Below, in pieces: positions 18,797-27,789 of a DNA stretch of 64,000 nucleotides. The notes below the pieces were generated by a model. That model had not been told where the DNA came from. It saw only the letters and a list, made by a program, of their open reading frames with translations, and ran no database searches. A program made the position numbers and the translations under genes. The DNA comes from Candidatus Nomurabacteria bacterium (GTDB lineage Bacteria; Patescibacteriota; Minisyncoccia; Phycocordibacterales; UBA918): NCBI GenBank assembly GCA_023898585.1, contig CP060229.1, positions 854,587-918,586 on the forward strand. Reading direction: 5' to 3'. Position 1 is the stretch's first letter. The number at the start of each line of letters is the position of its first letter.

Positions 18797-19828
18797 CTAA
18801 CGCAAATACCTTTCAATATTCATTAAATGTCGATCATAGGTTTCGGCAAAGTAGAATTCGCCCTCATCGTCTGTGATGTAGTAGTAGTACTCCGATAGGG
18901 TCGGCTCCAAAACAGCTGTTATGGCATTAAGACCCGGATTGCCAATCGGGGTTGGTGGTAGCCCAGTGTGCAGGTAAGTATTGTATGGAGACTCTATCTC
19001 AAGGTCTTCCGGAGTAAGGTCTGAAAGTGGTTTTTCCAAAATATATTCAATTGAAGCGTCTGCTTGCAGAGGCATACCTGTTCTAAGGCGGTTTTGGAGA
19101 ACACCAGAAACCAACTTCATGGATTCGGGCGTGTTGGCTTCTCTTTCGATTATCGACGCTAGTATTAAGATTTCGTCCATCGTTAGTTCTTGCTGTTCAA
19201 TCAGTGTTTGTAGACTGGTGGTTTTTTCAGCAAAAGTCTTTAGCAAAAGTTCCAACAATTCATCGTGAGTGAAGTCGGCCGGTATAAAGTAAGTGTCAGG
19301 GAAAAGTCTACCCTCTTGTGGCTCGGCCTTGTCTAAAAAATTTTTCGTATCAAAATTTGGCAATACTTCTTCTGCCCGCTTCGCCAACTGTGAAGCCCTT
19401 TCTCCCTCAATATGAGTGAAACGTATTAAATTGGTTGCAAAGTCACCCTTGGTCAGTCTCTCTGCCACTTCGGTGGTTGAAAGTGGTTGATCGAAGACAT
19501 AAGTGCTCGCTTTTATATCGGTTGGTTCATAGAAAAAGATGAGCGTGTAATACAGTAAACTGTTTGACCGAATCACTTTTTGCTCTTCCAGCGTTTCAGT
19601 GATGTCTTTAACCCCAGTTCCTTGAGTAATTGTGATTGGCACATTTATTGGAAAATCTTTCGGTGCTTCGTTGAGTGAGTTTGCCCAAAAATACAAACCG
19701 CCGAGTGTAATAAGAAGTAGTGCGCACAAAACTAACGTTAACTTAAAAAACTTACCTAAGGCAGTTCTTTGAGACTGTCCTTCCTGTAAACCCAATTCGG
19801 GACTGAATTTGATAGGTTCATCAGGCAT
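18797..19828 (-). CDS. mltG: Endolytic murein transglycosylase MltG (YceG family)
   Basis: YceG-family C-terminal motifs (GMPLQADASIEYIL...SPYNTYLHTGLPPTPIGNPGLNAITAVLEP). The ORF track's upstream extension to 19972 overlaps the neighbouring gene, so the internal Met (MPDEPIKF) is the likelier start. Confidence 0.75.
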   Translation of the reverse strand: MPDEPIKFSPELGLQEGQSQRTALGKFFKLTLVLCALLLITLGGLYFWANSLNEAPKDFPINVPITITQGTGVKDITETLEEQKVIRSNSLLYYTLIFFYEPTDIKASTYVFDQPLSTTEVAERLTKGDFATNLIRFTHIEGERASQLAKRAEEVLPNFDTKNFLDKAEPQEGRLFPDTYFIPADFTHDELLELLLKTFAEKTTSLQTLIEQQELTMDEILILASIIEREANTPESMKLVSGVLQNRLRTGMPLQADASIEYILEKPLSDLTPEDLEIESPYNTYLHTGLPPTPIGNPGLNAITAVLEPTLSEYYYYITDDEGEFYFAETYDRHLMNIERYLR

Positions 19829-21152
19829 AGGGCGTGTTACCGATTGGGAGATTGGCCGGAGCTTCTCTTCTTGTCGATTCCACCCTCGACATACTTGGAG
19901 TAAGAACAGATGTTCCGGGGATGTGATAAATAGTAGCCAGTTCCTCGACCGACATAACCTTAACCTTATCAACCCTTTTCTTTTTGTCGCCCGGCAAATA
20001 AAAACGGTGTTTGTAGTATTCTAGCTCGGTTTTTTTCATATTCCTTTTTCTTTGGCCGGAAAAGTCTGAAATGAAGTTGTAGTCGAAGTCGGTACGCCAG
20101 GTCGCTCCGAGTTGGTTCCTTCCCACCACATCATACTGCGCAAAAGCGCGCAAAAGTGGGCTGATCATGTCTGCGTCAAACTTTCCGGCTTCGGTTATGT
20201 ACATGGCTCTCACGACTGCGTCATACGCGTACTTACTGGTGTTGCGTTCAATGGCAGCGACCGTATCGCGCTCAGATAAAGTGAGGGTCGGTCTGTTTTC
20301 TGTTTCCTCTACCCCGCTACCTTCTTTGTCGCGCTTCATTATTTTGTCTATCACCTCCTTGGCGTGTACTTCCCATGTCGGCACATCAGATAGACTACCC
20401 CTCACTAAATTTTTGGGAGCGTGAGCGGTACAGAGAATTTGCACCCAGATTCTTTCGTGTGGTTTACACTTACCCAAATGTTCTATTAAGGGCGACATTG
20501 GTTCGAACTTTAATTCTTCTTTTGGTAGTTTATCCATCCCGAAATCAATGTAGGTTTTGATCGGGTAAACCTCGTCTTGTTTTTTTGTCATGTGGAATGA
20601 GATAAGGTCCCATTTTTTTTCGTCCCAAACCACTTCGGCGGCGTAGTCTATTAATTCTTCCACTATTTCAATACCCGGGTATTGAGCATAGAACTGCGCT
20701 TCGACAGCATTTTTGCCTTTTTTGGTTGGCACGTTGACATAAAAACGCACTTCTCCACCAATGGAGACAATCTCAAAGCTGTAGACCAAGGGGTGGCGAC
20801 CGTCGAAGTAGGTCTGCATGTAGTTGTCCGGTCTACTTGGGTTATGGATTTGGGTGAAGATACTTTCCATTGCTTCCGGTGACTTCAAAACTTCCTGTGG
20901 CAGTTTGATACGAAGAGTCGTTCGACCGTTATCGTATTTGAATTTTTCTGTCATGCTCCACATCCACATGTCAAACAAAACATAGAAAAAAACAACTGGT
21001 AGCCACAGCGGAGTCAAAACGATAACTACAGTGAGAATCGGTCTTATGTCTACATTGAGCAATGAAAAAACATAAAACATTATGCCTAAAGCAATGAATA
21101 AAAATAATGGTGTTGCGATGTTAACAACCATTGTTTTTGAGGAATCTCGCAT
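19821..21152 (-). CDS. Hypothetical membrane protein (2 N-terminal TM + large soluble domain)
   Basis: 443 aa; two N-terminal TM helices then a mixed alpha/beta domain; no recognised motif. Confidence 0.45.
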   Translation of the reverse strand: MRDSSKTMVVNIATPLFLFIALGIMFYVFSLLNVDIRPILTVVIVLTPLWLPVVFFYVLFDMWMWSMTEKFKYDNGRTTLRIKLPQEVLKSPEAMESIFTQIHNPSRPDNYMQTYFDGRHPLVYSFEIVSIGGEVRFYVNVPTKKGKNAVEAQFYAQYPGIEIVEELIDYAAEVVWDEKKWDLISFHMTKKQDEVYPIKTYIDFGMDKLPKEELKFEPMSPLIEHLGKCKPHERIWVQILCTAHAPKNLVRGSLSDVPTWEVHAKEVIDKIMKRDKEGSGVEETENRPTLTLSERDTVAAIERNTSKYAYDAVVRAMYITEAGKFDADMISPLLRAFAQYDVVGRNQLGATWRTDFDYNFISDFSGQRKRNMKKTELEYYKHRFYLPGDKKKRVDKVKVMSVEELATIYHIPGTSVLTPSMSRVESTRREAPANLPIGNTPYA

Positions 21153-21175
21153 GTGTCTGTTCTATTGTACACTAT

Positions 21176-21217
21176 AAAAACAGAGCGACTGGGCTAATGC
21201 CCAGTCGCTCTGTTTTT
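21176..21217 (-). terminator. Rho-independent terminator (bidirectional-capable) after the sigma-r4 gene
   Basis: Perfect 14-bp stem cagagcgactgggc/gcccagtcgctctg with a 4-nt loop, flanked by an A-run and a T-run. Confidence 0.7.
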
Positions 21218-21233
21218 AAAAATCTGCTTGTGT

Positions 21234-22259
21234 CTAATCAGCCAAAGCGTAGGAACCGTTGGCTAGTTTTTTGAAAATATTGGTGTCCTGAAGATTAACG
21301 AGAATGGTGTTATCTTTTACGTACCGTTCTTTTCTAACTTTATCAATCAGCTCTTCACGTGATAGTGGGCCTTCTTGGGCCAAAATTTCCCGGAGTACAT
21401 CTTTCACCACTCCGGCGGTGTAACCCCACTCAGTGAGAGCATATAAGCCACGACCTACCAAAACGAAACGTTCATCTTTGATCAATTCGTTGTGAGTGGT
21501 GGCAATATGTGCCTTGTGACCAAACAAGTCGCTGATGGTCTCAGCCACTTCGCGAAAGTGCATGGGAGAACCATGTCTTTTAACTGTGAGGTAAGCATAA
21601 TCTCGAATACCCTTCACGCGTATGTTCGGGCTGTCTGCCGGGCCCCAATCGCCAAGTGGATTACGCCCGATTTGCTTTGAAATCATTAGCCAACGCTTCA
21701 AGACACCCTCGTCGTGCTTGTCGGCGATATCAATCAGTTCGTTTCTGAAACGGTTTAGAATTTCTGACTCACTAATGAGTTCATCTCGGTTTAGATTGTT
21801 GTGAACATTGCGTAGCGCTTTTTCCACTGCTTCGGCAATTTTTCGTTCGGTAAACCAGCGGTGCTCATACTGAGGGTTCTCTTTACTTTTGTAAAAAGGA
21901 TCGCCAACCACCAGCAAAAAATACAAATGATTTCGAACTACCGGATCGTTACTTAGCTCATCAAGTAAAACATGTTCAGCGATCAGACCGCCCCCGAGCT
22001 GGTCGATTAGTTTTTGCATTTCTACGAAGAGATCGTAGTGTTTTTTGTATACATCGGATTTTTGGATCGATTGAATACCATAGTTTTCAATCTGTCGGAC
22101 TCGCTCTCTCGTTATGCCGTAAGACTGACCGATTGCTTCTAGAGTGTAGGTCTCTCCATCTTTGCCAAGCCCGTACCTTTTTTCAAGCACGTCACGAGCT
22201 CTCTCAGGGAGAACGTCCAGAAGAGTTTTGGTTATTTGTTTTGGTTTAAATGAAATCAT
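21234..22259 (-). CDS. Sigma-70 region-4 domain protein with C-terminal winged-helix-like domain
   Basis: 341 aa; N-terminal sigma-70 r4-like HTH (LPERARDVLEKRYGLG...TLEAIGQSYGITRERVRQIE); the remainder has no sigma r2/r3. Confidence 0.55.
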   Translation of the reverse strand: MISFKPKQITKTLLDVLPERARDVLEKRYGLGKDGETYTLEAIGQSYGITRERVRQIENYGIQSIQKSDVYKKHYDLFVEMQKLIDQLGGGLIAEHVLLDELSNDPVVRNHLYFLLVVGDPFYKSKENPQYEHRWFTERKIAEAVEKALRNVHNNLNRDELISESEILNRFRNELIDIADKHDEGVLKRWLMISKQIGRNPLGDWGPADSPNIRVKGIRDYAYLTVKRHGSPMHFREVAETISDLFGHKAHIATTHNELIKDERFVLVGRGLYALTEWGYTAGVVKDVLREILAQEGPLSREELIDKVRKERYVKDNTILVNLQDTNIFKKLANGSYALAD

Positions 22260-22357
22260 AAATAATTAAGTGAAGAATTGGTCATAGTCCTCAATGCGTG
22301 GCCAAATTTATAACATATCGGTCGTAATCGGTCAATGTTTTTAGTATAACACATGAT

Positions 22358-22551
22358 TAGAGCATGTCCAAAACCCTACACAAAGGAGTAAATCCTTCTC
22401 TAATATTTTGTTCCGGCTCGTCGGTTTGCAAAATTTGGTCAAAAAACCGCTATGATTTCTTACCGTACATCAGTATGGCTCGAAATTCTATCAATTTTTT
22501 GTCTCAAATTTTGCAAACCTTTGGAGCTCGGAGGGTTTTTGGACATGCTCT
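22358..22551. repeat. Nested inverted-repeat structured element (~190 bp) overlapping the leuS stop codon
   Basis: Outer IR tagagcatgtccaaaaccct (22358-22377) / agggtttttggacatgctcta (22531-22551); inner IR gtttgcaaaatttg (22424-22437) / caaattttgcaaac (22505-22518). No conserved ORF inside. Confidence 0.5.
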
Positions 22552-25339
22552 AAGAAATGATAAGGTTCAGAATTCTGCCTTGTACATAAATAATTTTTGT
22601 AATTTTATGATCTTTTATTCTGTTTGCGAGGGCTTCATTTTCATTGACTGCCTTCAGTGCTTCTTCTTCTGATGCTTCCCCCGAAATAGTTATCTCCCCT
22701 CTCATTTTGCCGTTAATTTGCACTCCGATAGTCACCGCTTCATCTTTAGTAAGGTCTGGGTCGTATGTGGGAAATTTTGCAATATGGATACTGCCTTCAT
22801 TGCCAATTTCGTGCCAAATTTCTTCGGTCAGATGTGGAGCGAAGGGGGCAAGAATCACCAAGAATTTTTTGTAGCTATCCGCAGTGAGACCGGTTTTTTC
22901 CGCCAGATTGACAAAGATCATCATCGCGCTGATGGCGGTATTAAATTTGAATTCTTTGATGTCTTCTGAAACCTTCTTGATTGTTTTATGGAGTTGTCTC
23001 GTCGTTTCATCAGGTTCGGTGTCGCTTATGTGCTCTCTCAAGCCGTTAACTCGTTCGAGAAACCGCCTTGCTCCAACCAGACCATCTTGCGACCAAGCAA
23101 TCGTGTTTTCGAACGGTCCCATGAACATTTCATAAACTCGTAAAGTATCCGCTCCCACCAAATTTACTATTTCATCGGGATTGATGACATTTCCCCATCT
23201 TTTACTCATTTTTCGTCCGTCTTCCGCCAAGATAAAGCCGAGAAATTCCAGTCTCTGGAAGGGTTCCTCTGTACTTACTACCCCGATATCGTAGAGAAAC
23301 TTGTGCCAAAAACGAGCGTAGATAAGGTGTCGTACAGCATGGTCGCCACCAACATAGACGTCAACCGGTGCCCAAAACTTCTCATTTTTCTTACTTACCA
23401 GTTCTTTAGTGTTGTGGGGGTCCATGTAGCGCAAGTAGTACCAGGAAGAACCGGCCCACTGTGGCATGGTATTGGTCTCTCGTCGGCCGGATCCGGCACA
23501 TTTCGGGCACTTTGTATTTACCCAATCCTCTATATTGGCAAGTGGTGATTGCCCGTCGCCTGCCGGCTCGTACTTCTCTACGTCCGGCAACACAACTGGC
23601 AACTCACTATCCGGTACTGGTACAGCGCCACATTTATCACAGTGAATGATCGGAATTGGCTCTCCCCAGTAGCGCTGGCGTGAAAACACCCAATCTTTGA
23701 TCTTGTATGTTTTGGTTAGTCGACCCCCTACCTTTTTGGTGATGGCGATTTTGGCTTCTTTGGAGTTCATGCCGTCAAACTCGTCGGAATTAATCAATTT
23801 ACCTAAAGCTATTGTCGGTTGATCAATCATGCTGTGAGCGAAGTCTTTTAATGAAAAAGCCCATTCATCATCTGGAATTCCTTCCAGGGAATCGAATATT
23901 TCCAATTGACCTTCATGAACTGATAAATTCGAATCGTCGACTTTATCTATGAAGTAAAAAGCATATTCTTCTCTTAAATCAGAACTAGATTTTCTAAGAT
24001 ATACGAGTCTGGGCGCTAGTTTATTTTTTATAATGTCTAATTCCAGTTCCTCATGCAGTTCTCTAGCTAGAGCTTGTTCGGGTGATTCTCCTTTCTCAAC
24101 ATGACCACCAAAAGTGCAAAGTTTATCAGGGCTGGTCGGTGCCCCTGTACGTCGCTGTAACAGGTACTTTCCTTCCCGATTCCTGATAAATGCGCCAGTT
24201 GCCTTTACTCTATTTATAGTTGGTATTTCGGTTATTACGTATCTAATCCCAATCCCAAACTTTTTCGCAAACGCAAAGTCTCGCTCATCATGCGCCGGGA
24301 CAGCCATAATCGCGCCCGTACCGTAGCTTGCGAGCACATAGTCAGCGATATACACCGGAATTGTCTCGCCATTGGCTGGATTGACTGCCGTTATCCCTTC
24401 CAGCTTCACTCCAGTTTTGTCTTTGGTTGCGTCAAGTCGATCCATTTCTTTTTTACCCTCCGCTTCTTTCACGTATGTCTCAACTTCATGCCAATTCAAA
24501 ATAACTTTACTGTATTTCTCTATAAATTCGTGCTCCGGTGCCAAAACCAAGTAAGTAGCTCCGAAAAGGGTGTCCGGACGAGTGGTAAAGACTGTTACTT
24601 TCCCACCAATCGACAATTCAAAGTCAATTTCCGCTCCCTCACTACGCCCGATCCAATTGCGTTGCGCCTCTTTAATATGTTCCGGCCACTCCAGGGTATC
24701 CAAATCTGCAAGCATCCGATCGGCGTACTCCCGGATTTTTAATACCCACTGTCGCATTGGTTTTTGCTCCACTTTACTCTCGCAACGCTCGCAGGTACCG
24801 TCCGCCTCCAGATCCTCATTAGCCAGTCCTGTCTGGCAACCGGGACACCAGTTGATCGGCTCATTGCTTTCGTAAGCCAGACCTTTTTTGAAAAGTTGAA
24901 TAAAAATCCACTGTGTCCATTTGTAATAATTTGGGTCTGTAGTATTGATTTCTCTTTCCCAATCATAGTCAAAGCCCAACACTTCCAACTGCTCTTTAAA
25001 GCGTGCGACGTTTTTCTCGACCGCCACGCGCGGATGGGTTTTGTTTTTGATGGCGAAGTTTTCTGCCGGCAGACCAAAAGCGTCCCAGCCCATCGGGTGT
25101 AGTACTTCGTGTCCGGTCATTCTCATGAAACGGGAGTAAATATCGGTCGCGATATAGCCTTTGGGGTGTCCAACGTGCAGTCCTTCGCCTGACGGATACG
25201 GAAACATGTCCAACACAAATGCTTTCGGTTTGCTGGTGTTTTCGTTAGTTTTATACAGTTTGTTCTCGCGCCAATTTTCGCGCCATTTGCTTTCTATTTG
25301 TTTGTGGTCGAAACGTTTATGCATACAAAATCTAGGCAC
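22550..25339 (-). CDS. leuS: Leucine--tRNA ligase with a NUDIX hydrolase domain inserted in the CP1 editing domain
   Basis: 929 aa; HVGH (LHVGHPKGY), KMSKR, editing-domain motifs TTRPDTLFGATYLVLAPEH and GTGAIMAVPAHDERDFAFAKKFGI, and an anticodon-binding domain. Residues ~376-510 (nt 23810-24214) form a Nudix fold with the Nudix box GGHVEKGESPEQALARELHEELEL. Confidence 0.9.
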   Translation of the reverse strand: MPRFCMHKRFDHKQIESKWRENWRENKLYKTNENTSKPKAFVLDMFPYPSGEGLHVGHPKGYIATDIYSRFMRMTGHEVLHPMGWDAFGLPAENFAIKNKTHPRVAVEKNVARFKEQLEVLGFDYDWEREINTTDPNYYKWTQWIFIQLFKKGLAYESNEPINWCPGCQTGLANEDLEADGTCERCESKVEQKPMRQWVLKIREYADRMLADLDTLEWPEHIKEAQRNWIGRSEGAEIDFELSIGGKVTVFTTRPDTLFGATYLVLAPEHEFIEKYSKVILNWHEVETYVKEAEGKKEMDRLDATKDKTGVKLEGITAVNPANGETIPVYIADYVLASYGTGAIMAVPAHDERDFAFAKKFGIGIRYVITEIPTINRVKATGAFIRNREGKYLLQRRTGAPTSPDKLCTFGGHVEKGESPEQALARELHEELELDIIKNKLAPRLVYLRKSSSDLREEYAFYFIDKVDDSNLSVHEGQLEIFDSLEGIPDDEWAFSLKDFAHSMIDQPTIALGKLINSDEFDGMNSKEAKIAITKKVGGRLTKTYKIKDWVFSRQRYWGEPIPIIHCDKCGAVPVPDSELPVVLPDVEKYEPAGDGQSPLANIEDWVNTKCPKCAGSGRRETNTMPQWAGSSWYYLRYMDPHNTKELVSKKNEKFWAPVDVYVGGDHAVRHLIYARFWHKFLYDIGVVSTEEPFQRLEFLGFILAEDGRKMSKRWGNVINPDEIVNLVGADTLRVYEMFMGPFENTIAWSQDGLVGARRFLERVNGLREHISDTEPDETTRQLHKTIKKVSEDIKEFKFNTAISAMMIFVNLAEKTGLTADSYKKFLVILAPFAPHLTEEIWHEIGNEGSIHIAKFPTYDPDLTKDEAVTIGVQINGKMRGEITISGEASEEEALKAVNENEALANRIKDHKITKIIYVQGRILNLIIS

Positions 25340-25470
25340 CTTTTATTGATAATTAATTAAACATTATTCTGCCACTGTTCAGTAAATGTGCAAATTATTT
25401 CTTTGAATTTATGTGTGAAGCATCAAGTTGTGTTTATTGGCCATTCATTCTGCTGTATAATCTGATTATT

Positions 25471-25740
25471 ATGAAACAAGAAGATTTGAGAAATGCACCC
25501 AAATTATTTTGCGAGAGCATAAATGTCGCCTTCACCCCGGAGTACTTTGTGGTTGGCATGACTTCAGGTAACCAAGGTTCGATTTATACACTTACCCCGC
25601 AACACGCTAAGAGATTGAAACAGTATTTGGAACATCAGGTAAAAGAATTTGAAGAAAAACATGGTGAAATCAATGCTAAGTGGGACCCGAATATCCTCAG
25701 TCCGATGCAAAGGGTTAAACCACTGGCCGAGGGAAGTTAA
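25471..25740 (+). CDS. DUF3467-like small protein
   Basis: Starts at the internal Met (MKQEDLRN). The motif INVAFTPEYFVVGMTSGNQGSIYTLTPQHAKRLKQYLEHQVKEFEEKHGEI resembles the DUF3467 family. It is one of the few plus-strand genes in the first half of the window. Confidence 0.45.
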   Translation: MKQEDLRNAPKLFCESINVAFTPEYFVVGMTSGNQGSIYTLTPQHAKRLKQYLEHQVKEFEEKHGEINAKWDPNILSPMQRVKPLAEGS

Positions 25741-25747
25741 ACGGGCA

Positions 25748-25777
25748 TAAAAAAACTGCCCCGGTACAACGCGGGGC
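25748..25777 (-). terminator. Rho-independent terminator after the 196-aa ORF
   Basis: Stem gccccg/cggggc with an 8-nt loop, followed on the minus strand by a U7 run (plus-strand A7 at 25749-25755). Confidence 0.5.
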
Positions 25778-25799
25778 GAGTTGAGAGACAGTTGCGAAA

Positions 25800-26390
25800 T
25801 CAAAGCATCTGTTTAAGAATCTCTAACCTATTTCTAAATGACACGCAAAGTTTTATGTTTTCCTTGAGCAGTCTTTCCAAGTCGCTGACTTCCTTTCTTA
25901 TCCTTGCCAGATAAAAATCCCTCCATTTGAGAGGAGAATGCCATTTTTGCTGAAACAAAGCCAACTTGCGCTTATCTTCGGTGTTTGTCTCGGGGTCTTG
26001 TAGCCACTGCATAATGGACACGAAAGGTCTTTTTCCTTTAATCTCTGGTCGACAATCGGGGTCGTAGTTCTTGAACGAAGCAACGATCTCTGTCGGCTGG
26101 TGCTTGATTGATATTTCGCCCCAAGTGTGATCGTCAACAATTAAGCACTTTCTAAACCTAAAATACTCAATTGAAACTACCGCATCAAAATCCTCAAGGA
26201 TCATAAGTCCCTGAAGGGCAGCTCTGATAGCATCCCTGTATGATGGACTCACTTCAATATCACAACCTCGTCCCGAATATATCGGTAGTTGCAACATATC
26301 TTCAGTGAGAGTGGTTCTTACGTGTTTCTCTGGTTCCGCCCAAGCAAAACAGAAAAGAAATTTTCTGCTACTAACGAGTCTAACGGTCAT
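25800..26390 (-). CDS. Hypothetical protein
   Basis: 196-aa ORF with coding-like composition; no recognised motifs. Confidence 0.4.
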   Translation of the reverse strand: MTVRLVSSRKFLFCFAWAEPEKHVRTTLTEDMLQLPIYSGRGCDIEVSPSYRDAIRAALQGLMILEDFDAVVSIEYFRFRKCLIVDDHTWGEISIKHQPTEIVASFKNYDPDCRPEIKGKRPFVSIMQWLQDPETNTEDKRKLALFQQKWHSPLKWRDFYLARIRKEVSDLERLLKENIKLCVSFRNRLEILKQML

Positions 26391-26463
26391 GTGTATTTCC
26401 CCTGTAAAAAAGCTTCTTTCACTAAGTTATAGCAAAGCGACTTGGTTGTCTATGGAAGTACGA

Positions 26464-26666
26464 GGAAGCGCGGCCGAAGTGGCTAAAAATATGTGTGAGA
26501 GACAAGCTGGAGCACGAGGCATATCGGGATATGTTGAGTGCGATGCGTGCGTTTCGTAGCCATATTTTAGCCACGACGACCGGAAATGAATTAGAATAAC
26601 ATTATTTTCATGGTGAGACTTCAGACAGTTTCACCTAGCCGAAGCGCGGCCGAAGGCCGCGCTTCC
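26464..26666. mobile_element. MITE-like palindromic repeat, copy A (inverted relative to copy B), flanked by a 15-bp direct repeat
   Basis: ~160-bp body (26480-26640) whose reverse complement is ~90% identical to 40498-40639. Flanked by the direct repeats gaagcgcggccgaag (26465-26479 and 26641-26655). The right-hand copy is part of a perfect GC hairpin gaagcgcggcc-gaa-ggccgcgcttc, 22 nt downstream of the ychF stop. Internal IR gtggctaaaaatatg / catattttagccac. Confidence 0.55.
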
Positions 26667-26688
26667 ATGCTCAATCAAATAGACGTTT

Positions 26689-27789
26689 TTACGAGTGCAT
26701 AAACTCAATCACGTCTCCGTCTTGCACCACGTACTCCCTGCCTTCGGTTCTGAGCTTACCTTGATCGCGAGCAACAGATTTTGACCCACTGGCCACCAAA
26801 TCTTCAAATTTTACCACCTGTGCGCGAATATACTTTGTCTGAAAGTCACTATGAATAACACCTCCCGCTTCCGGTCCAGTACTACCTTCTGGTATTGTCC
26901 AAGCACGCGTTTCTTTTTCGCCGGTCGTGAAATAACTGATCAGACCAAGACTATGGTAAGCGACTCTGATCAGCGATTCGACACCGTTTTCCTGTGCTCC
27001 ATACTCGCGACGAAATTCGTTTTTCTCACTCTCGGAAAAATCTTTTAGCTCGTGTTCCATTCCTGCGTCGACCACTACATACTCAGATCCGGTCTTTTCA
27101 AAAAACTCCACTAATTCGTCCCATCTTGGGTCGCTTTGTTCGTCCAGGTTAAAAGCATCTTGTTTTTTGTTGCAGACATATAAAAACTTCTTCATTGTTA
27201 AAAGATGAAGATCTTTAATCTGTTTTTTCTCATCTTTCGTCATTTCAAAACTATTAGCTAAAGATCCGGCATCCAAATGCACTAGAAGCTTTTCCAGCAA
27301 AGTTTTCTCTGCGATAGCCGGCTTGTCTCCTCGCTTAACCTCCTTCTCCAAGTTATTGACACGCTTTGCTACTGTCTCGGCGTCAGCCATGATAAGTTCC
27401 AGGTTAATAACTTCAATATCTCCCATCGGGTCAACTCCGCCGGAGACATGGTGGATATCACTGTCTTCAAAAATTCTTACCACCTCGGCAATCATGTCGG
27501 TTTCCCGAATATTAGCGAGGAACTTGTTCCCGAGTCCTTCGCCGGCCGAAGCTCCTTTTACCAGTCCTGCAATATCAACAAATTCCACAATGGCCGGGAT
27601 GATGTCTTTAGATTTTGAAATTTCGGCCAAAGTGGTGAGTCTATGGTCGGGTACGGCAACTACCCCAACTGTCGGGTCGATTGTGCAAAACGGATAGTTG
27701 GCCATTTCGACCGAATTTTTCGTGAGTGCATTAAAAAGGGTTGATTTTCCAACATTTGGTAGACCGGCAATTCCGACAGATAGTGACAT
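26689..27789 (-). CDS. ychF: Ribosome-binding ATPase YchF (Obg-family GTPase-like)
   Basis: 366 aa; G1 motif GIAGLPNVGKSTLFNALT, NYPFCTIDPTVG, and a TGS C-terminal domain. Confidence 0.85.
   Translation of the reverse strand: MSLSVGIAGLPNVGKSTLFNALTKNSVEMANYPFCTIDPTVGVVAVPDHRLTTLAEISKSKDIIPAIVEFVDIAGLVKGASAGEGLGNKFLANIRETDMIAEVVRIFEDSDIHHVSGGVDPMGDIEVINLELIMADAETVAKRVNNLEKEVKRGDKPAIAEKTLLEKLLVHLDAGSLANSFEMTKDEKKQIKDLHLLTMKKFLYVCNKKQDAFNLDEQSDPRWDELVEFFEKTGSEYVVVDAGMEHELKDFSESEKNEFRREYGAQENGVESLIRVAYHSLGLISYFTTGEKETRAWTIPEGSTGPEAGGVIHSDFQTKYIRAQVVKFEDLVASGSKSVARDQGKLRTEGREYVVQDGDVIEFMHS

What the first reader, a model, noticed from the sequence alone, without database searches (positions are those of the whole stretch)
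23810..24214. NUDIX hydrolase domain (~135 aa) inserted inside the CP1 editing domain of leucyl-tRNA synthetase
LeuS keeps its HVGH, KMSKR and editing motifs (TTRPDT..., AHDERD...). Between the editing-domain segment IGIRYVITEIPTI and the conserved GKLINSDEFDGMNSKEAK (E. coli GVLFNSGEFNGL) it carries a complete Nudix fold with a canonical Nudix box, GGHVEKGESPEQALARELHEELEL (G-x5-E-x7-RE-U-x-EE). Class I and II aaRSs generate Ap4A and related dinucleoside polyphosphates, and Nudix enzymes hydrolyse them. An in-cis Nudix module on an aaRS is therefore mechanistically suggestive: clean-up of Ap4A or mis-activated adenylates, or a regulatory role. To my knowledge it is not a described LeuS architecture.
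Basis: partly seen in the sequence, partly recalled or inferred. Interest (0 to 1): 0.75.

Follow-up and report, generated by a model that had tools for sequence, protein, structure and literature searches.

The report
Swappable Nudix enzyme cassette inside LeuRS
An intact-looking small nucleotide-hydrolysing (Nudix) enzyme sits inside the proofreading domain of this bacterium's essential leucyl-tRNA synthetase, and comparison with relatives shows it is a strain-variable, exchangeable cassette, an arrangement found in none of my six full-text literature searches.

Summary

It is not a chimera. Of the 121 LeuRS compared (the window's plus its 120 closest), 71 carry a Nudix at the same site. These are mostly Paceibacteria/Parcubacteria, and some Firmicutes-like backbones carry one too. 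The three metal-binding glutamates are invariant in all 71.

The unexpected part is that the insert behaves as an exchangeable cassette. At least 12 sequence types occur, in a short MutT-like class and a long RppH/YtkD-like class. Backbones 94-99% identical in protein carry a different Nudix type or an unrelated 35-43-residue peptide. Cassette type is uncoupled from backbone similarity. The window's cassette has atypical codon composition (GC3 0.29 against 0.41 for other genes in the window).

Most likely it is an autonomous house-cleaning nucleotide pyrophosphohydrolase riding in a permissive loop. The Ap4A idea is untested and not favoured. Six full-text literature searches found no description.

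The parts
22550..25339 (-). Leucyl-tRNA synthetase gene (929 codons from a GTG). The real start is probably the ATG at 25324, giving 924 aa. The stop codon is at 22550-22552.
   Evidence: ORF list. TIGR00396 scores 995.7 bits against a cutoff of 548.4. E=1e-209 to T. thermophilus LeuRS. P0003 is 100% identical, 924 aa long and starts at M6. The AF2 full-length model has pLDDT 83.8 and matches LeuRS structures.
23804..24229 (-). Variable cassette slot (residues 371-512). This is everything between the last residue alignable to Thermus LeuRS before the insert and the first one after it.
   Evidence: query 370 aligns with Tth 363 and query 513 with Tth 381. In relatives this slot holds 3 to 166 residues.
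23810..24214 (-).
24038..24106 (-). Nudix box, residues 412-434: GHVEKGESPEQALARELHEELEL.
   Evidence: It is the only Gx5Ex7[RK]Ex2EE match in any frame of the window. G412, E427, E430 and E431 are invariant in 68 aligned orthologues and in all 71 cassettes.
24221..24661 (-). CP1 editing domain, part before the cassette (residues 227-373). It contains the T-rich motif TTRPDT (24569-24586) and AHDERD (24278-24295).
   Evidence: PF13603 profile positions 1-144 of 185, E=4e-58. T252-T257 and H350, D351, R353 and D354 are invariant.
23705..23803 (-). CP1 editing domain, part after the cassette (about residues 513-545: GKLINSDEFDGMNSKEAK...). It returns to the catalytic core.
   Evidence: Aligns to Tth LeuRS from residue 381 onward. 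G513 is invariant.
25166..25177 (-). HIGH motif (HVGH, residues 55-58).
   Evidence: invariant.
23198..23212 (-). KMSKS motif (KMSKR, residues 710-714). The leucine-specific domain that precedes it in Thermus and E. coli is absent.
   Evidence: In one search, query 706-711 aligns to Tth 580-638.

Best explanation
What it is (shown): a complete minimal Nudix hydrolase domain of the MutT-like short class, about 135 aa. It is nested through two short, low-confidence linkers in a surface loop of the CP1 editing domain of an otherwise complete bacterial-type LeuRS.

How it behaves in evolution (shown): the loop is a cassette slot. Related Paceibacteria/Parcubacteria LeuRS, and some Firmicutes-like LeuRS, carry one of at least 12 mutually divergent Nudix types there, or a short unrelated peptide. 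These fall into a ~141-aa MutT/NudG-like class and a ~155-165-aa RppH/YtkD/NudB-like class. Cassettes are replaced between nearly identical backbones. The breakpoints lie in the conserved LeuRS codons on either side, which suggests homologous recombination with divergent alleles; that mechanism is inferred.

How it most likely works (inferred): the Nudix domain is an autonomous, Mg-dependent nucleoside-polyphosphate pyrophosphohydrolase. Its most probable role is house-cleaning of non-canonical or excess (d)NTPs. It is simply tethered to an essential, constitutively expressed protein in a small genome, which guarantees its expression. It does not take part in leucine activation, transfer or editing. 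LeuRS tolerates it because the loop is permissive.
For: Domain identity and intactness:
- Pfam, NCBIfam and motif positions; alignment to Thermus LeuRS; the insert model and its structural matches.
- In the full-length model the linkers are less confident (pLDDT 70 for residues 371-380, 65 for 501-510) than the domain itself (73-91).

Catalysis appears to be kept under selection:
- The box's second G and the three glutamates (RE, EE) are invariant in 71 of 71 cassettes. Median cassette identity is only 21%, against 77% for the LeuRS body.
- Within a cassette type, the cassette can be as conserved as the body: 0.87 against 0.83-0.84, and 0.88 against 0.82.

The domain is accessory and exchangeable:
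- P0093 (Nudix) and P0111 (a 43-aa peptide) share flanks of 98.1% and 99.6% nucleotide identity, with a clean swap of 480 nt for 151 nt.
- P0007 and P0011 carry two different Nudix types on flanks 95.7% and 97.9% identical.
- P0065 and P0098 lie in about 9 kb of syntenic sequence at 90-94% identity, and only the cassette differs. Both were assembled independently in several samples.
- Backbone identity is 0.774 for pairs with the same cassette type and 0.763 for pairs with different types.

Free-standing relatives exist:
- Short-class cassettes are 33-47% identical over their full length to 130-145-aa stand-alone Nudix proteins. That is as close as, or closer than, their identity to other LeuRS cassette types.
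- The long class has a 159-aa relative with no LeuRS flanks, apparently stand-alone (P0275, on a 1.4-kb contig).

The window's cassette is compositionally foreign: GC3 is 0.289, in the lowest 1.5% of the window's coding stretches.

Evidence for the house-cleaning reading:
- The nearest profiles and structures are MutT, NudG, NudI, MutT2, MTH1 and BdRppH.
- Another LeuRS (P0141) carries a Ham1/ITPase-like domain in a second CP1 loop. This is an unrelated fold with the same house-cleaning role.
Against: - No substrate was or could be tested.
- No cassette reaches any curated NCBIfam equivalog cutoff, so MutT-like is only a nearest-neighbour statement.
- BdRppH and RppH, which are among the neighbours, also act on RNA 5' ends and on Np4A.
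- Simple hitch-hiking does not explain two observations: the same loop of the same enzyme is used repeatedly across phyla, and the cassette types turn over quickly. Both could point to a LeuRS-linked or conflict-driven function.
- A 14-member subgroup has Q for the Gx5E glutamate. Twelve of those also have A for the box arginine, so activity may differ between types.
- I could not read model coordinates, so the orientation of the Nudix site relative to the editing site and the tRNA is unknown.
Confidence: 0.5

Rival explanations
1. In-cis clean-up of LeuRS by-products. The Nudix domain hydrolyses Ap4A or Ap3A made when Leu-AMP reacts with ATP, or it degrades mis-activated adenylates. Either would couple alarmone level to LeuRS activity.
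For: - Class I aaRS can form Ap4A (established knowledge).
- Nudix neighbours include enzymes active on Np4A: RppH bound to Ap4A (7sp3) appears in the Foldseek list.
- The same slot is reused across phyla, which hints at a LeuRS-specific reason.
- Other hosts of this Nudix family are also ATP/NTP-using enzymes: IleRS, Mur ligase, nucleotidyl- and adenylyl-transferases.
Against: - Ap4A hydrolases are not the closest structures or profiles.
- Aminoacyl-adenylates are not nucleoside diphosphate-X compounds.
- LeuRS 94-99% identical in protein exists without any Nudix, so the function is dispensable for LeuRS.
- Two different Nudix classes occupy the slot.
Confidence: 0.15
2. RNA-end enzyme. The Nudix acts like RppH, YtkD or a decapping enzyme on the 5' end of LeuRS-bound tRNA(Leu) or of other RNAs (5'-triphosphate, NAD or Np4 caps). 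LeuRS serves as the RNA-binding platform.
- Long-class cassettes score best against RppH and YtkD profiles.
- The insert sits in the domain that receives the tRNA acceptor end (established LeuRS structural knowledge).
Against: - All profile scores are far below the family cutoffs (20-33 bits against 116-259).
- BdRppH is equally a dGTP/GTP pyrophosphohydrolase.
- Mature tRNA carries a 5' monophosphate.
- The geometry was not testable here.
Confidence: 0.1
3. Conflict-driven variable module. The cassette hydrolyses a phage- or defence-related nucleotide (a signal, an NAD/ADPR derivative or a modified NTP). Its rapid type turnover would then reflect an arms race.
For: - There is strain-level presence/absence and type replacement, many divergent types, and no tie to the backbone.
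- The window's cassette has atypical codon composition.
- There are weak hits to the PADLOC candidate family PDC-S07 (E=6.8e-12 for the window's cassette).
- Nudix domains are known components of NAD-linked conflict systems (PMC7159879).
Against: - The PADLOC match covers only the generic Nudix-box half of the domain.
- The neighbours are housekeeping genes in conserved synteny: YchF, a sigma70_r4/HARE-HTH protein and YceG. No defence genes are adjacent.
- Turnover could equally reflect relaxed constraint on an exposed domain.
Confidence: 0.1
4. Non-catalytic insert. The Nudix fold serves as a structural or ligand-sensing module, for example a nucleotide-binding regulator of editing-domain movement or a substitute for the missing leucine-specific domain.
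For: - The LeuRS of this clade lacks the leucine-specific domain.
- One subgroup has lost the box glutamate and mostly also the arginine.
Against: - The metal-ligand glutamates are invariant in 71 of 71 cassettes despite 21% median identity. That is the signature of retained catalysis.
- Cassette-less LeuRS in the same clade also lack the leucine-specific domain (lengths 784-841 aa). So the Nudix does not compensate for it.
Confidence: 0.1
5. Artefact: an assembly chimera or a mis-join that places a Nudix gene fragment inside leuS.
For: The insert has lower GC than the rest of the gene.
Against: - The reading frame is uninterrupted through both junctions.
- An identical protein was assembled independently (P0003).
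- In all, 71 of 121 LeuRS from many samples and assemblers carry a Nudix at the same site, including on contigs of 170-688 kb.
- L086 and L087, from separate ENA assemblies, are 99.7% identical over 5.7 kb.
Confidence: 0.01

Closest known systems
Bacterial-type leucyl-tRNA synthetase (T. thermophilus 1H3N/2BYT, E. coli 4AQ7/4ARC)
   Same: It has the full catalytic core, the HIGH and KMSKS motifs, and a CP1 editing domain with the T-rich motif and the catalytic Asp. It also has the anticodon-binding and C-terminal domains. Scores: TIGR00396 995.7 bits, Foldseek E=3e-70.
   Different: A 142-residue segment containing a Nudix domain replaces a 17-residue loop within CP1. The leucine-specific domain before KMSKS is missing.
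Minimal MutT-like Nudix NTP pyrophosphohydrolases (M. mazei MutT 3GRN, M. smegmatis MutT2 5ZRC, BdRppH 3EES, E. coli NudG/ORF135 2RRK, NudB 2O1C, hMTH1)
   Different: It is embedded in another protein. Identity to solved structures is only 22-24%. It is below every NCBIfam equivalog cutoff. The trailing G of the box is E433. The substrate is unknown.
Nudix Ap4A/ApnA hydrolases (C. elegans 1KT9, P. falciparum 5CFI, T. thermophilus Ndx1 1VC8)
   Same: The fold and the box are the same, and a link to aaRS-made Ap4A is chemically plausible.
aaRS carrying extra enzyme domains, e.g. NCBIfam NF040702 'isoleucine--tRNA ligase, N-acetyltransferase domain-containing'
   Same: The concept is the same: a class Ia synthetase with an additional enzyme domain. 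The family appears in the NCBIfam hit list.
   Different: The guest domain is different (GNAT) and so is the host (IleRS). Exchange between strains like that seen here is, to my knowledge, not reported for it, and I did not examine that family.
NadM-Nudix bifunctional NMN adenylyltransferase/ADP-ribose pyrophosphatase (2QJT, 2QJO)
   Different: That is a terminal fusion rather than a nested insertion. Its Nudix domain is an ADP-ribose pyrophosphatase with a defined metabolic link to the host domain.
Inteins and other strain-variable insertions in conserved essential genes
   Same: It is an in-frame, present-or-absent insertion at a fixed site in a highly conserved essential gene, and it varies between close strains.
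   Different: There is no Hint/intein domain hit. The splice-junction residues are absent: the insert starts NRVK and ends PTIALGK. There are no flanking repeats. The domain presumably stays in the mature protein.

Membership tests
Bacterial leucyl-tRNA synthetase (TIGR00396 leuS_bact) | Whole-protein score above the curated equivalog cutoff | tested here: met
   995.7 bits against a cutoff of 548.4.
Bacterial leucyl-tRNA synthetase (TIGR00396 leuS_bact) | Class I signature motifs HIGH and KMSKS | tested here: met
   HVGH at 55-58 and KMSKR at 710-714. Both are invariant among 68 orthologues.
Bacterial leucyl-tRNA synthetase (TIGR00396 leuS_bact) | CP1 editing domain with the T-rich motif and the catalytic Asp | tested here: met
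   PF13603 E=4e-58. TTRPDT at 252-257 and D351 in AHDERD are invariant.
Bacterial leucyl-tRNA synthetase (TIGR00396 leuS_bact) | Leucine-specific domain before KMSKS (present in Thermus and E. coli, but not universal) | tested here: not met
   Query 706-711 spans Tth 580-638, so about 57 residues are absent.
Bacterial leucyl-tRNA synthetase (TIGR00396 leuS_bact) | Leucylation and editing activity | not testable with these tools
   This needs enzymology.
Nudix hydrolase superfamily (PF00293) | Pfam domain score above the gathering threshold | tested here: met
   56.5 bits against 21.1, E=3.7e-15, residues 378-478.
Nudix hydrolase superfamily (PF00293) | Nudix box GX5EX7REUXEEXGU | tested here: met
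   The box reads G412-x5-E418-x7-R426-E427-L428-x-E430-E431-x-E433-L434. Only the trailing G deviates, and it is variable in the family here (G in 43 of 71).
Nudix hydrolase superfamily (PF00293) | Alpha/beta/alpha sandwich fold with the box on a loop-helix-loop | tested here: met
Nudix hydrolase superfamily (PF00293) | Mg/Mn-dependent hydrolysis of a nucleoside diphosphate-X substrate | not testable with these tools
   Inferred only, from the invariant metal-ligand glutamates in 71 of 71 cassettes.
MutT 8-oxo-dGTP diphosphatase (TIGR00586 / NF008044) | Score above the equivalog cutoff | tested here: not met
   37.5 bits against 97.9, and 39.9 against 148. It is the nearest family but the cassette is not a member.
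RNA pyrophosphohydrolase RppH (NF001934-NF001938) | Score above the equivalog cutoff | tested here: not met
   The window's cassette scores 18.7-20.5 bits against cutoffs of 241-259. Long-class cassettes score 19-33 bits against 116-139.
Nudix Ap4A hydrolase | Closest structural or sequence similarity to characterised ApnA hydrolases | tested here: inconclusive
Intein / mobile self-splicing insertion | Hint domain, with an N-terminal Cys/Ser and a C-terminal His-Asn followed by Cys/Ser/Thr | tested here: not met
   There is no Hint/intein Pfam hit. The junction residues are TI|NRVK and PTI|ALGK. There are no flanking repeats.

The most novel reading that the evidence does not exclude
The CP1 loop of LeuRS in Patescibacteria, and in some Firmicutes, may be an intragenic cassette port. 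That would be a recombination-exchangeable slot inside an essential gene, through which strains swap alternative accessory enzyme domains. Under this reading the Nudix module acts in cis on LeuRS-proximal ligands, such as the tRNA(Leu) acceptor or 5' end, or Np4A made by the synthetase. Its rapid type turnover would be driven by conflict, for example with phages or toxins that target tRNA or LeuRS. The exchangeability itself is what I observed. The cis-acting, conflict-driven function is the unproven part.
Probability: 0.15. Interest if true: 0.85.

Novelty: new variant of a known kind. Interest (0 to 1): 0.7.

Why it matters
Aminoacyl-tRNA synthetases are among the most conserved proteins known. 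The LeuRS editing domain has just been catalogued as a module that is only ever inserted and never hosts another domain (PMC13114784). Here it hosts an apparently catalytically intact Nudix enzyme, which makes a three-level nesting: Nudix inside CP1 inside the Rossmann fold.

The guest also differs between LeuRS backbones that are 94-99% identical in protein. That amounts to accessory-genome dynamics inside an essential housekeeping gene. Related proteins show the same theme:
- a second Nudix in another CP1 loop;
- a Ham1/ITPase-like domain;
- an alpha/beta-hydrolase in the catalytic core;
- an IleRS-like protein with a phosphatase plus a Nudix.

If the Nudix acts on LeuRS products or on tRNA, it would be a new link between translation and nucleotide signalling. 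If it is autonomous, it shows how ultra-small genomes may package accessory enzymes. It also identifies a naturally permissive insertion site in LeuRS that could be useful for protein engineering.

Tried and rejected
- **Assembly chimera: rejected.** An identical independent assembly exists, 71 of 121 LeuRS share the insertion site, and long contigs carry it.
- **Transposon-like insertion: rejected.** Only chance-level 11-15-nt repeats and no inverted repeats flank the insert.
- **Intein: rejected.** There is no Hint domain and no junction residues.
- **Single ancient insertion with purely vertical descent: disfavoured.**
  - Cassette type is uncoupled from backbone identity (0.774 against 0.763).
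  - Three DNA-level pairs show clean replacement.
  - Short-class cassettes are as close to stand-alone Nudix proteins as to other cassette types.
- **The Nudix compensates for the missing leucine-specific domain: rejected.** Cassette-less relatives also lack that domain.
- **Searches that gave little.**
  - The insert alone found only two stand-alone relatives in the word-indexed database.
It returned mostly Firmicutes LeuRS without inserts, although 11 loci with the Nudix were recovered.
  - The long-class profile search returned fragments and generic Nudix proteins rather than full-length LeuRS, so I have no census of the architecture.
  - The cluster look-up gave no names or taxonomy for the stand-alone relatives.
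  - The AFDB Foldseek library was unavailable.
  - Model coordinates are not exposed, so I could not measure where the Nudix site points.
- **Literature.** Six searches found no description.
Full report
**1. The observation**

The region lies in a 929-codon minus-strand ORF at 22550..25339. It is a bacterial-type leucyl-tRNA synthetase:
- TIGR00396 scores 995.7 bits against a cutoff of 548.4.
- phmmer gives E=1e-209 to T. thermophilus LeuRS.
- The motifs are HVGH 55-58, TTRPDT 252-257, AHDERD 349-354 and KMSKR 710-714.

Pfam places the LeuRS editing domain PF13603 at residues 227-373. That match stops at profile position 144 of 185. Pfam then places PF00293 NUDIX at residues 378-478 (E=3.7e-15, 56.5 bits, gathering score 21.1).

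Against Thermus LeuRS, query residue 370 pairs with Tth 363 and query 513 with Tth 381. So 142 residues replace a 17-residue loop. Two things place the insertion inside CP1. The Pfam editing model is split at position 144 of 185. The Thermus alignment resumes well before the conserved RDW(x)SRQRYWG strand that returns to the catalytic core.

The box G412-x5-E418-x7-R426-E427-L-x-E430-E431 is canonical apart from the trailing G, which is E433.

**2. Fold**

An AF2 model of the full protein has pLDDT 83.8 and pTM 0.75. It gives the Nudix segment pLDDT 73-91. The two connecting segments score lower: 70 for residues 371-380 and 65 for 501-510. The whole model matches LeuRS structures.

A model of residues 370-514 alone has pLDDT 89.3 and pTM 0.84. 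Its best structural matches are:
- Foldseek: M. mazei MutT, NudB, BdRppH, NudG, MutT2 and NUDT15.

No NCBIfam equivalog cutoff is reached. The nearest are MutT (about 38-40 bits against cutoffs of 98-148), NudG and NudI.

**3. Not a chimera, and not unique**

The database holds a 100% identical protein from another assembly (P0003). Most of the closest LeuRS carry PF00293 as well.

I aligned the window's protein with its 120 best hits. Of these 121 sequences, 71 have 130-166 residues in the slot. The rest have 3-44 residues, and two have 77-81.

In the 71 cassettes the second G of the box and the three glutamates (RE, EE) are invariant. The Gx5E glutamate is E in 54, Q in 14 and D in 3. The arginine is R in 56 and A in 12. 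In a 68-sequence alignment the only invariant positions inside the insert are G412, E427, E430 and E431. The LeuRS catalytic and editing motifs are invariant throughout.

A scan of GTDB species genomes recovered the same insertion in 11 loci:
- further Parcubacteria/Paceibacterota MAGs, including a Colwellbacteria MAG;
- L006 and L008, whose LeuRS backbone is closest to Clostridia (0.64-0.66 identity, against 0.53 to the CPR backbones);
- L010, whose backbone is closest to Bacillus (0.66).

L010's cassette is 42% identical to a CPR cassette type.

**4. The insert is an exchangeable cassette**

Median pairwise identity is 77% for the LeuRS body but 21% for the insert, and the two are nearly uncorrelated (r=0.17). 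Clustering at 40% identity or more gives eight multi-member Nudix types plus singletons. Recurrent non-Nudix peptides of 33-44 residues also occur. Backbone identity is 0.774 for same-type pairs and 0.763 for different-type pairs. On a neighbour-joining tree of the backbone, cassette states are interspersed.

The closest different-state pairs, by protein identity of the backbone, are:

| Pair | States | Backbone identity |
|---|---|---|
| P0093 / P0111 | 153-aa Nudix vs 43-aa peptide | 99.1% |
| P0007 / P0011 | two different Nudix types | 97.7% |
| P0065 / P0098 | 164-aa Nudix vs 35-aa peptide | 94.4% |
| P0052 / P0069 | two different Nudix types | 92.8% |
| P0010 / P0052 | two different Nudix types | 92.3% |

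At the DNA level:
- L001 and L002 are 98.1% identical over 1422 nt upstream and 99.6% over 2539 nt downstream, neighbouring genes included. Between these flanks, 480 nt of Nudix cassette faces 151 unrelated nucleotides. The breaks lie in the conserved codons for ...KKYDI(D/E)I and LINSGEFDG.
- L084 and L085 are 95.7% and 97.9% identical in the flanks and 32-53% across the cassette.
- L086 and L088 are syntenic over about 9 kb at 90-94% identity, with the cassette as the only large difference. L086 and L087 are separate ENA assemblies that are 99.7% identical. P0098 occurs on contigs of 259 and 284 kb.

No repeats flank the window's cassette. I infer replacement by homologous recombination anchored in the conserved flanks.

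The window's cassette has GC3 of 0.289. The LeuRS backbone runs at 0.47-0.54. Stretches of 405 nt from the window's other genes average 0.411 (sd 0.048), which puts the cassette in the lowest 1.5%. That fits a fairly recent import, although relaxed codon selection is an alternative explanation.

**5. Two classes and free-standing relatives**

The ~141-aa types include the window's type 6. They score best against MutT, NudG and NudI profiles. The ~153-166-aa types score best against RppH, YtkD and NudB profiles. All of these scores are below the family cutoffs.

A profile of the short class, searched exhaustively against 1.84 billion representatives, found 1688 proteins at E≤1e-10. The top hits are mostly 130-155-aa stand-alone Nudix proteins and tandem Nudix proteins. 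Short-class cassettes are 33-47% identical over their full length to such proteins; the window's cassette is 38% identical to P0130 over 133 aa. That is as close as, or closer than, their identity to other LeuRS cassette types.

The long class has a 159-aa relative, P0275, with no LeuRS flanks. It sits on a 1.4-kb contig, so its stand-alone status is probable rather than certain.

So the slot has probably been filled from the free-standing Nudix pool at least twice.

Within some types the cassette is as conserved as the LeuRS body (0.87 against 0.84; 0.88 against 0.82). That indicates purifying selection on the whole domain.

**6. Wider theme**

The long proteins recovered by the same search show related architectures:
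- LeuRS with Nudix plus a Ser_hydrolase (alpha/beta-hydrolase) domain in the catalytic core (P0136). A similar hydrolase-like insert appears in the Doudnabacteria locus L012, judged there by motif only.
- LeuRS with two Nudix domains, one of them in a second CP1 loop just before the T-rich motif (P0138). P0049 also has two.
- LeuRS with a Ham1/ITPase-like domain (PF01725, E=8e-6, above the gathering score) in that second loop, plus Nudix, plus an alpha/beta-hydrolase (P0141).
- An IleRS-like protein with a low-molecular-weight phosphatase domain plus Nudix (P0246).
- A Mur ligase with an internal Nudix.
- Hexapeptide transferases and a streptomycin adenylyltransferase with C-terminal Nudix domains.

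**7. Interpretation**

These points are shown:
- The domain is real, well folded in the model, and appears catalytically intact.
- It is nested in CP1.
- It is widespread.
- It is exchangeable between closely related backbones.

This part is inferred. The domain most likely works as an autonomous Mg-dependent nucleotide pyrophosphohydrolase. A house-cleaning, MutT-like role is the best guess for the window's type. It would be carried in a permissive loop of an essential, constitutively made protein. Four observations support this reading:
- the nearest neighbours are MutT-type enzymes;
- an unrelated house-cleaning fold (Ham1) occurs in the same host domain;
- the linkers are low-confidence in the model, which would fit flexibility;
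- the cassette is dispensable for closely related LeuRS.

This does not explain why this particular loop is reused across phyla, or why types turn over so fast. So I keep three alternatives open at 0.10-0.15 each: Ap4A/Np4A clean-up, an RppH-like action on RNA or tRNA ends, and a conflict-driven role. A non-catalytic role is unlikely given the invariant metal ligands.

**8. Comparison with what is known**

**9. Limits**

- No enzymology was possible.
- Taxonomy rests on record titles and on backbone similarity.
- I obtained no complete census.
- In-vivo recombination, as opposed to assembler joins, is supported by independent assemblies and long contigs but not by read-level data.

Noticed in passing
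window 23198-23230 (LeuRS residues ~704-714): This LeuRS, and the consensus of the 68 cassette-bearing relatives aligned with it, lack the leucine-specific domain that precedes KMSKS in Thermus and E. coli LeuRS. Query 706-711 spans Tth 580-638. The 784-841-aa lengths of cassette-less relatives suggest they lack it as well.
   Followed up: partly
window 25322-25339: The ORF as listed starts at a GTG (25339). The identical database protein P0003 and the consensus of the orthologues both start at the ATG five codons downstream (25324), which gives 924 aa.
   Followed up: partly
P0049 (1107 aa) and P0138 (1131 aa), relatives: These LeuRS carry two Nudix domains each. In P0049 the second lies a few residues after the first. 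In P0138 one is in a different CP1 loop, between the first beta-hairpin and the T-rich motif, and the other is at the canonical site.
   Followed up: partly
P0141 (1344 aa), P0136 (1150 aa), locus L012 3001-6084: Some LeuRS carry other inserted enzyme domains. P0141 has a Ham1/ITPase-like domain in the second CP1 loop. P0136 and P0141 have a Ser_hydrolase/alpha-beta-hydrolase domain inserted in the catalytic core. L012 (Doudnabacteria) has a hydrolase-like insert (FVILHGKGE...VVGHSFGG) right after the HCxKC motif, recognised by motif only.
   Followed up: partly
P0246 (1396 aa): This IleRS-like class I synthetase (PF00133 plus DUF5915) has a low-molecular-weight phosphotyrosine-phosphatase domain (249-385) and a Nudix domain (405-471) inserted in tandem.
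   Followed up: no
P0178, P0217, P0254, P0269: The same short-class Nudix family occurs inside a Mur ligase, between its middle and C-terminal domains. It is also fused to the C-terminus of hexapeptide (LbH) transferases and of a streptomycin adenylyltransferase.
   Followed up: no
slot equivalent to window 23804-24229 in P0044/56/62, P0066/76/82, P0089/110/111, P0024/41, P0031/35, P0097/98, P0016, P0078: Cassette-less LeuRS are not simply deleted. They carry recurrent but mutually unrelated peptides of 33-44 residues (several multi-member types), and two have 77-81 residues. The three I scanned (P0111's 43-aa peptide and the 77- and 81-aa segments of P0016 and P0078) had no Pfam match.
   Followed up: partly
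loci L006, L008, L010 (match 3001-~5850): A Nudix sits at the same CP1 site in LeuRS whose backbones are closest to Clostridia (L006, L008; gut MAGs) or to Bacillus (L010, 'Bacillota bacterium SIG208'). So the architecture is not confined to Patescibacteria. L010's cassette is 42% identical to a CPR cassette type.
   Followed up: partly
P0113 (1120 aa); window 21234-22259: In one relative the LeuRS is fused in one ORF to a Sigma70_r4/HARE-HTH protein. In the window and in loci L084-L089 that protein is the separate 341-aa gene immediately downstream of leuS. This could be a real fusion or a lost stop codon.
   Followed up: no
P0283 (240 aa, 993-kb contig) and P0286 (100 aa, 247-kb contig): These are LeuRS fragments that end inside a type-0 Nudix cassette, on very long contigs. 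They could be frameshifted or pseudogenised leuS, long-read indel errors, or a gene call made with the wrong genetic code.
   Followed up: no
window 18797-27789: The synteny around leuS is conserved with relatives L084-L089 downstream of leuS: a Sigma70_r4/HARE-HTH protein, a 443-aa protein with no Pfam hit here (it matches DUF8128 in the relatives), then YceG. YchF lies upstream, as it does in L002/L003. The 196-aa ORF at 25800-26390 has no Pfam match. Relatives have a DUF5671 protein between YchF and leuS instead.
   Followed up: partly
window 23810-24214: The cassette gives a weak match to the PADLOC candidate defence family PDC-S07 (E=6.8e-12). The match covers only the Nudix-box half of the domain, so it is probably generic Nudix similarity.
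   Followed up: partly
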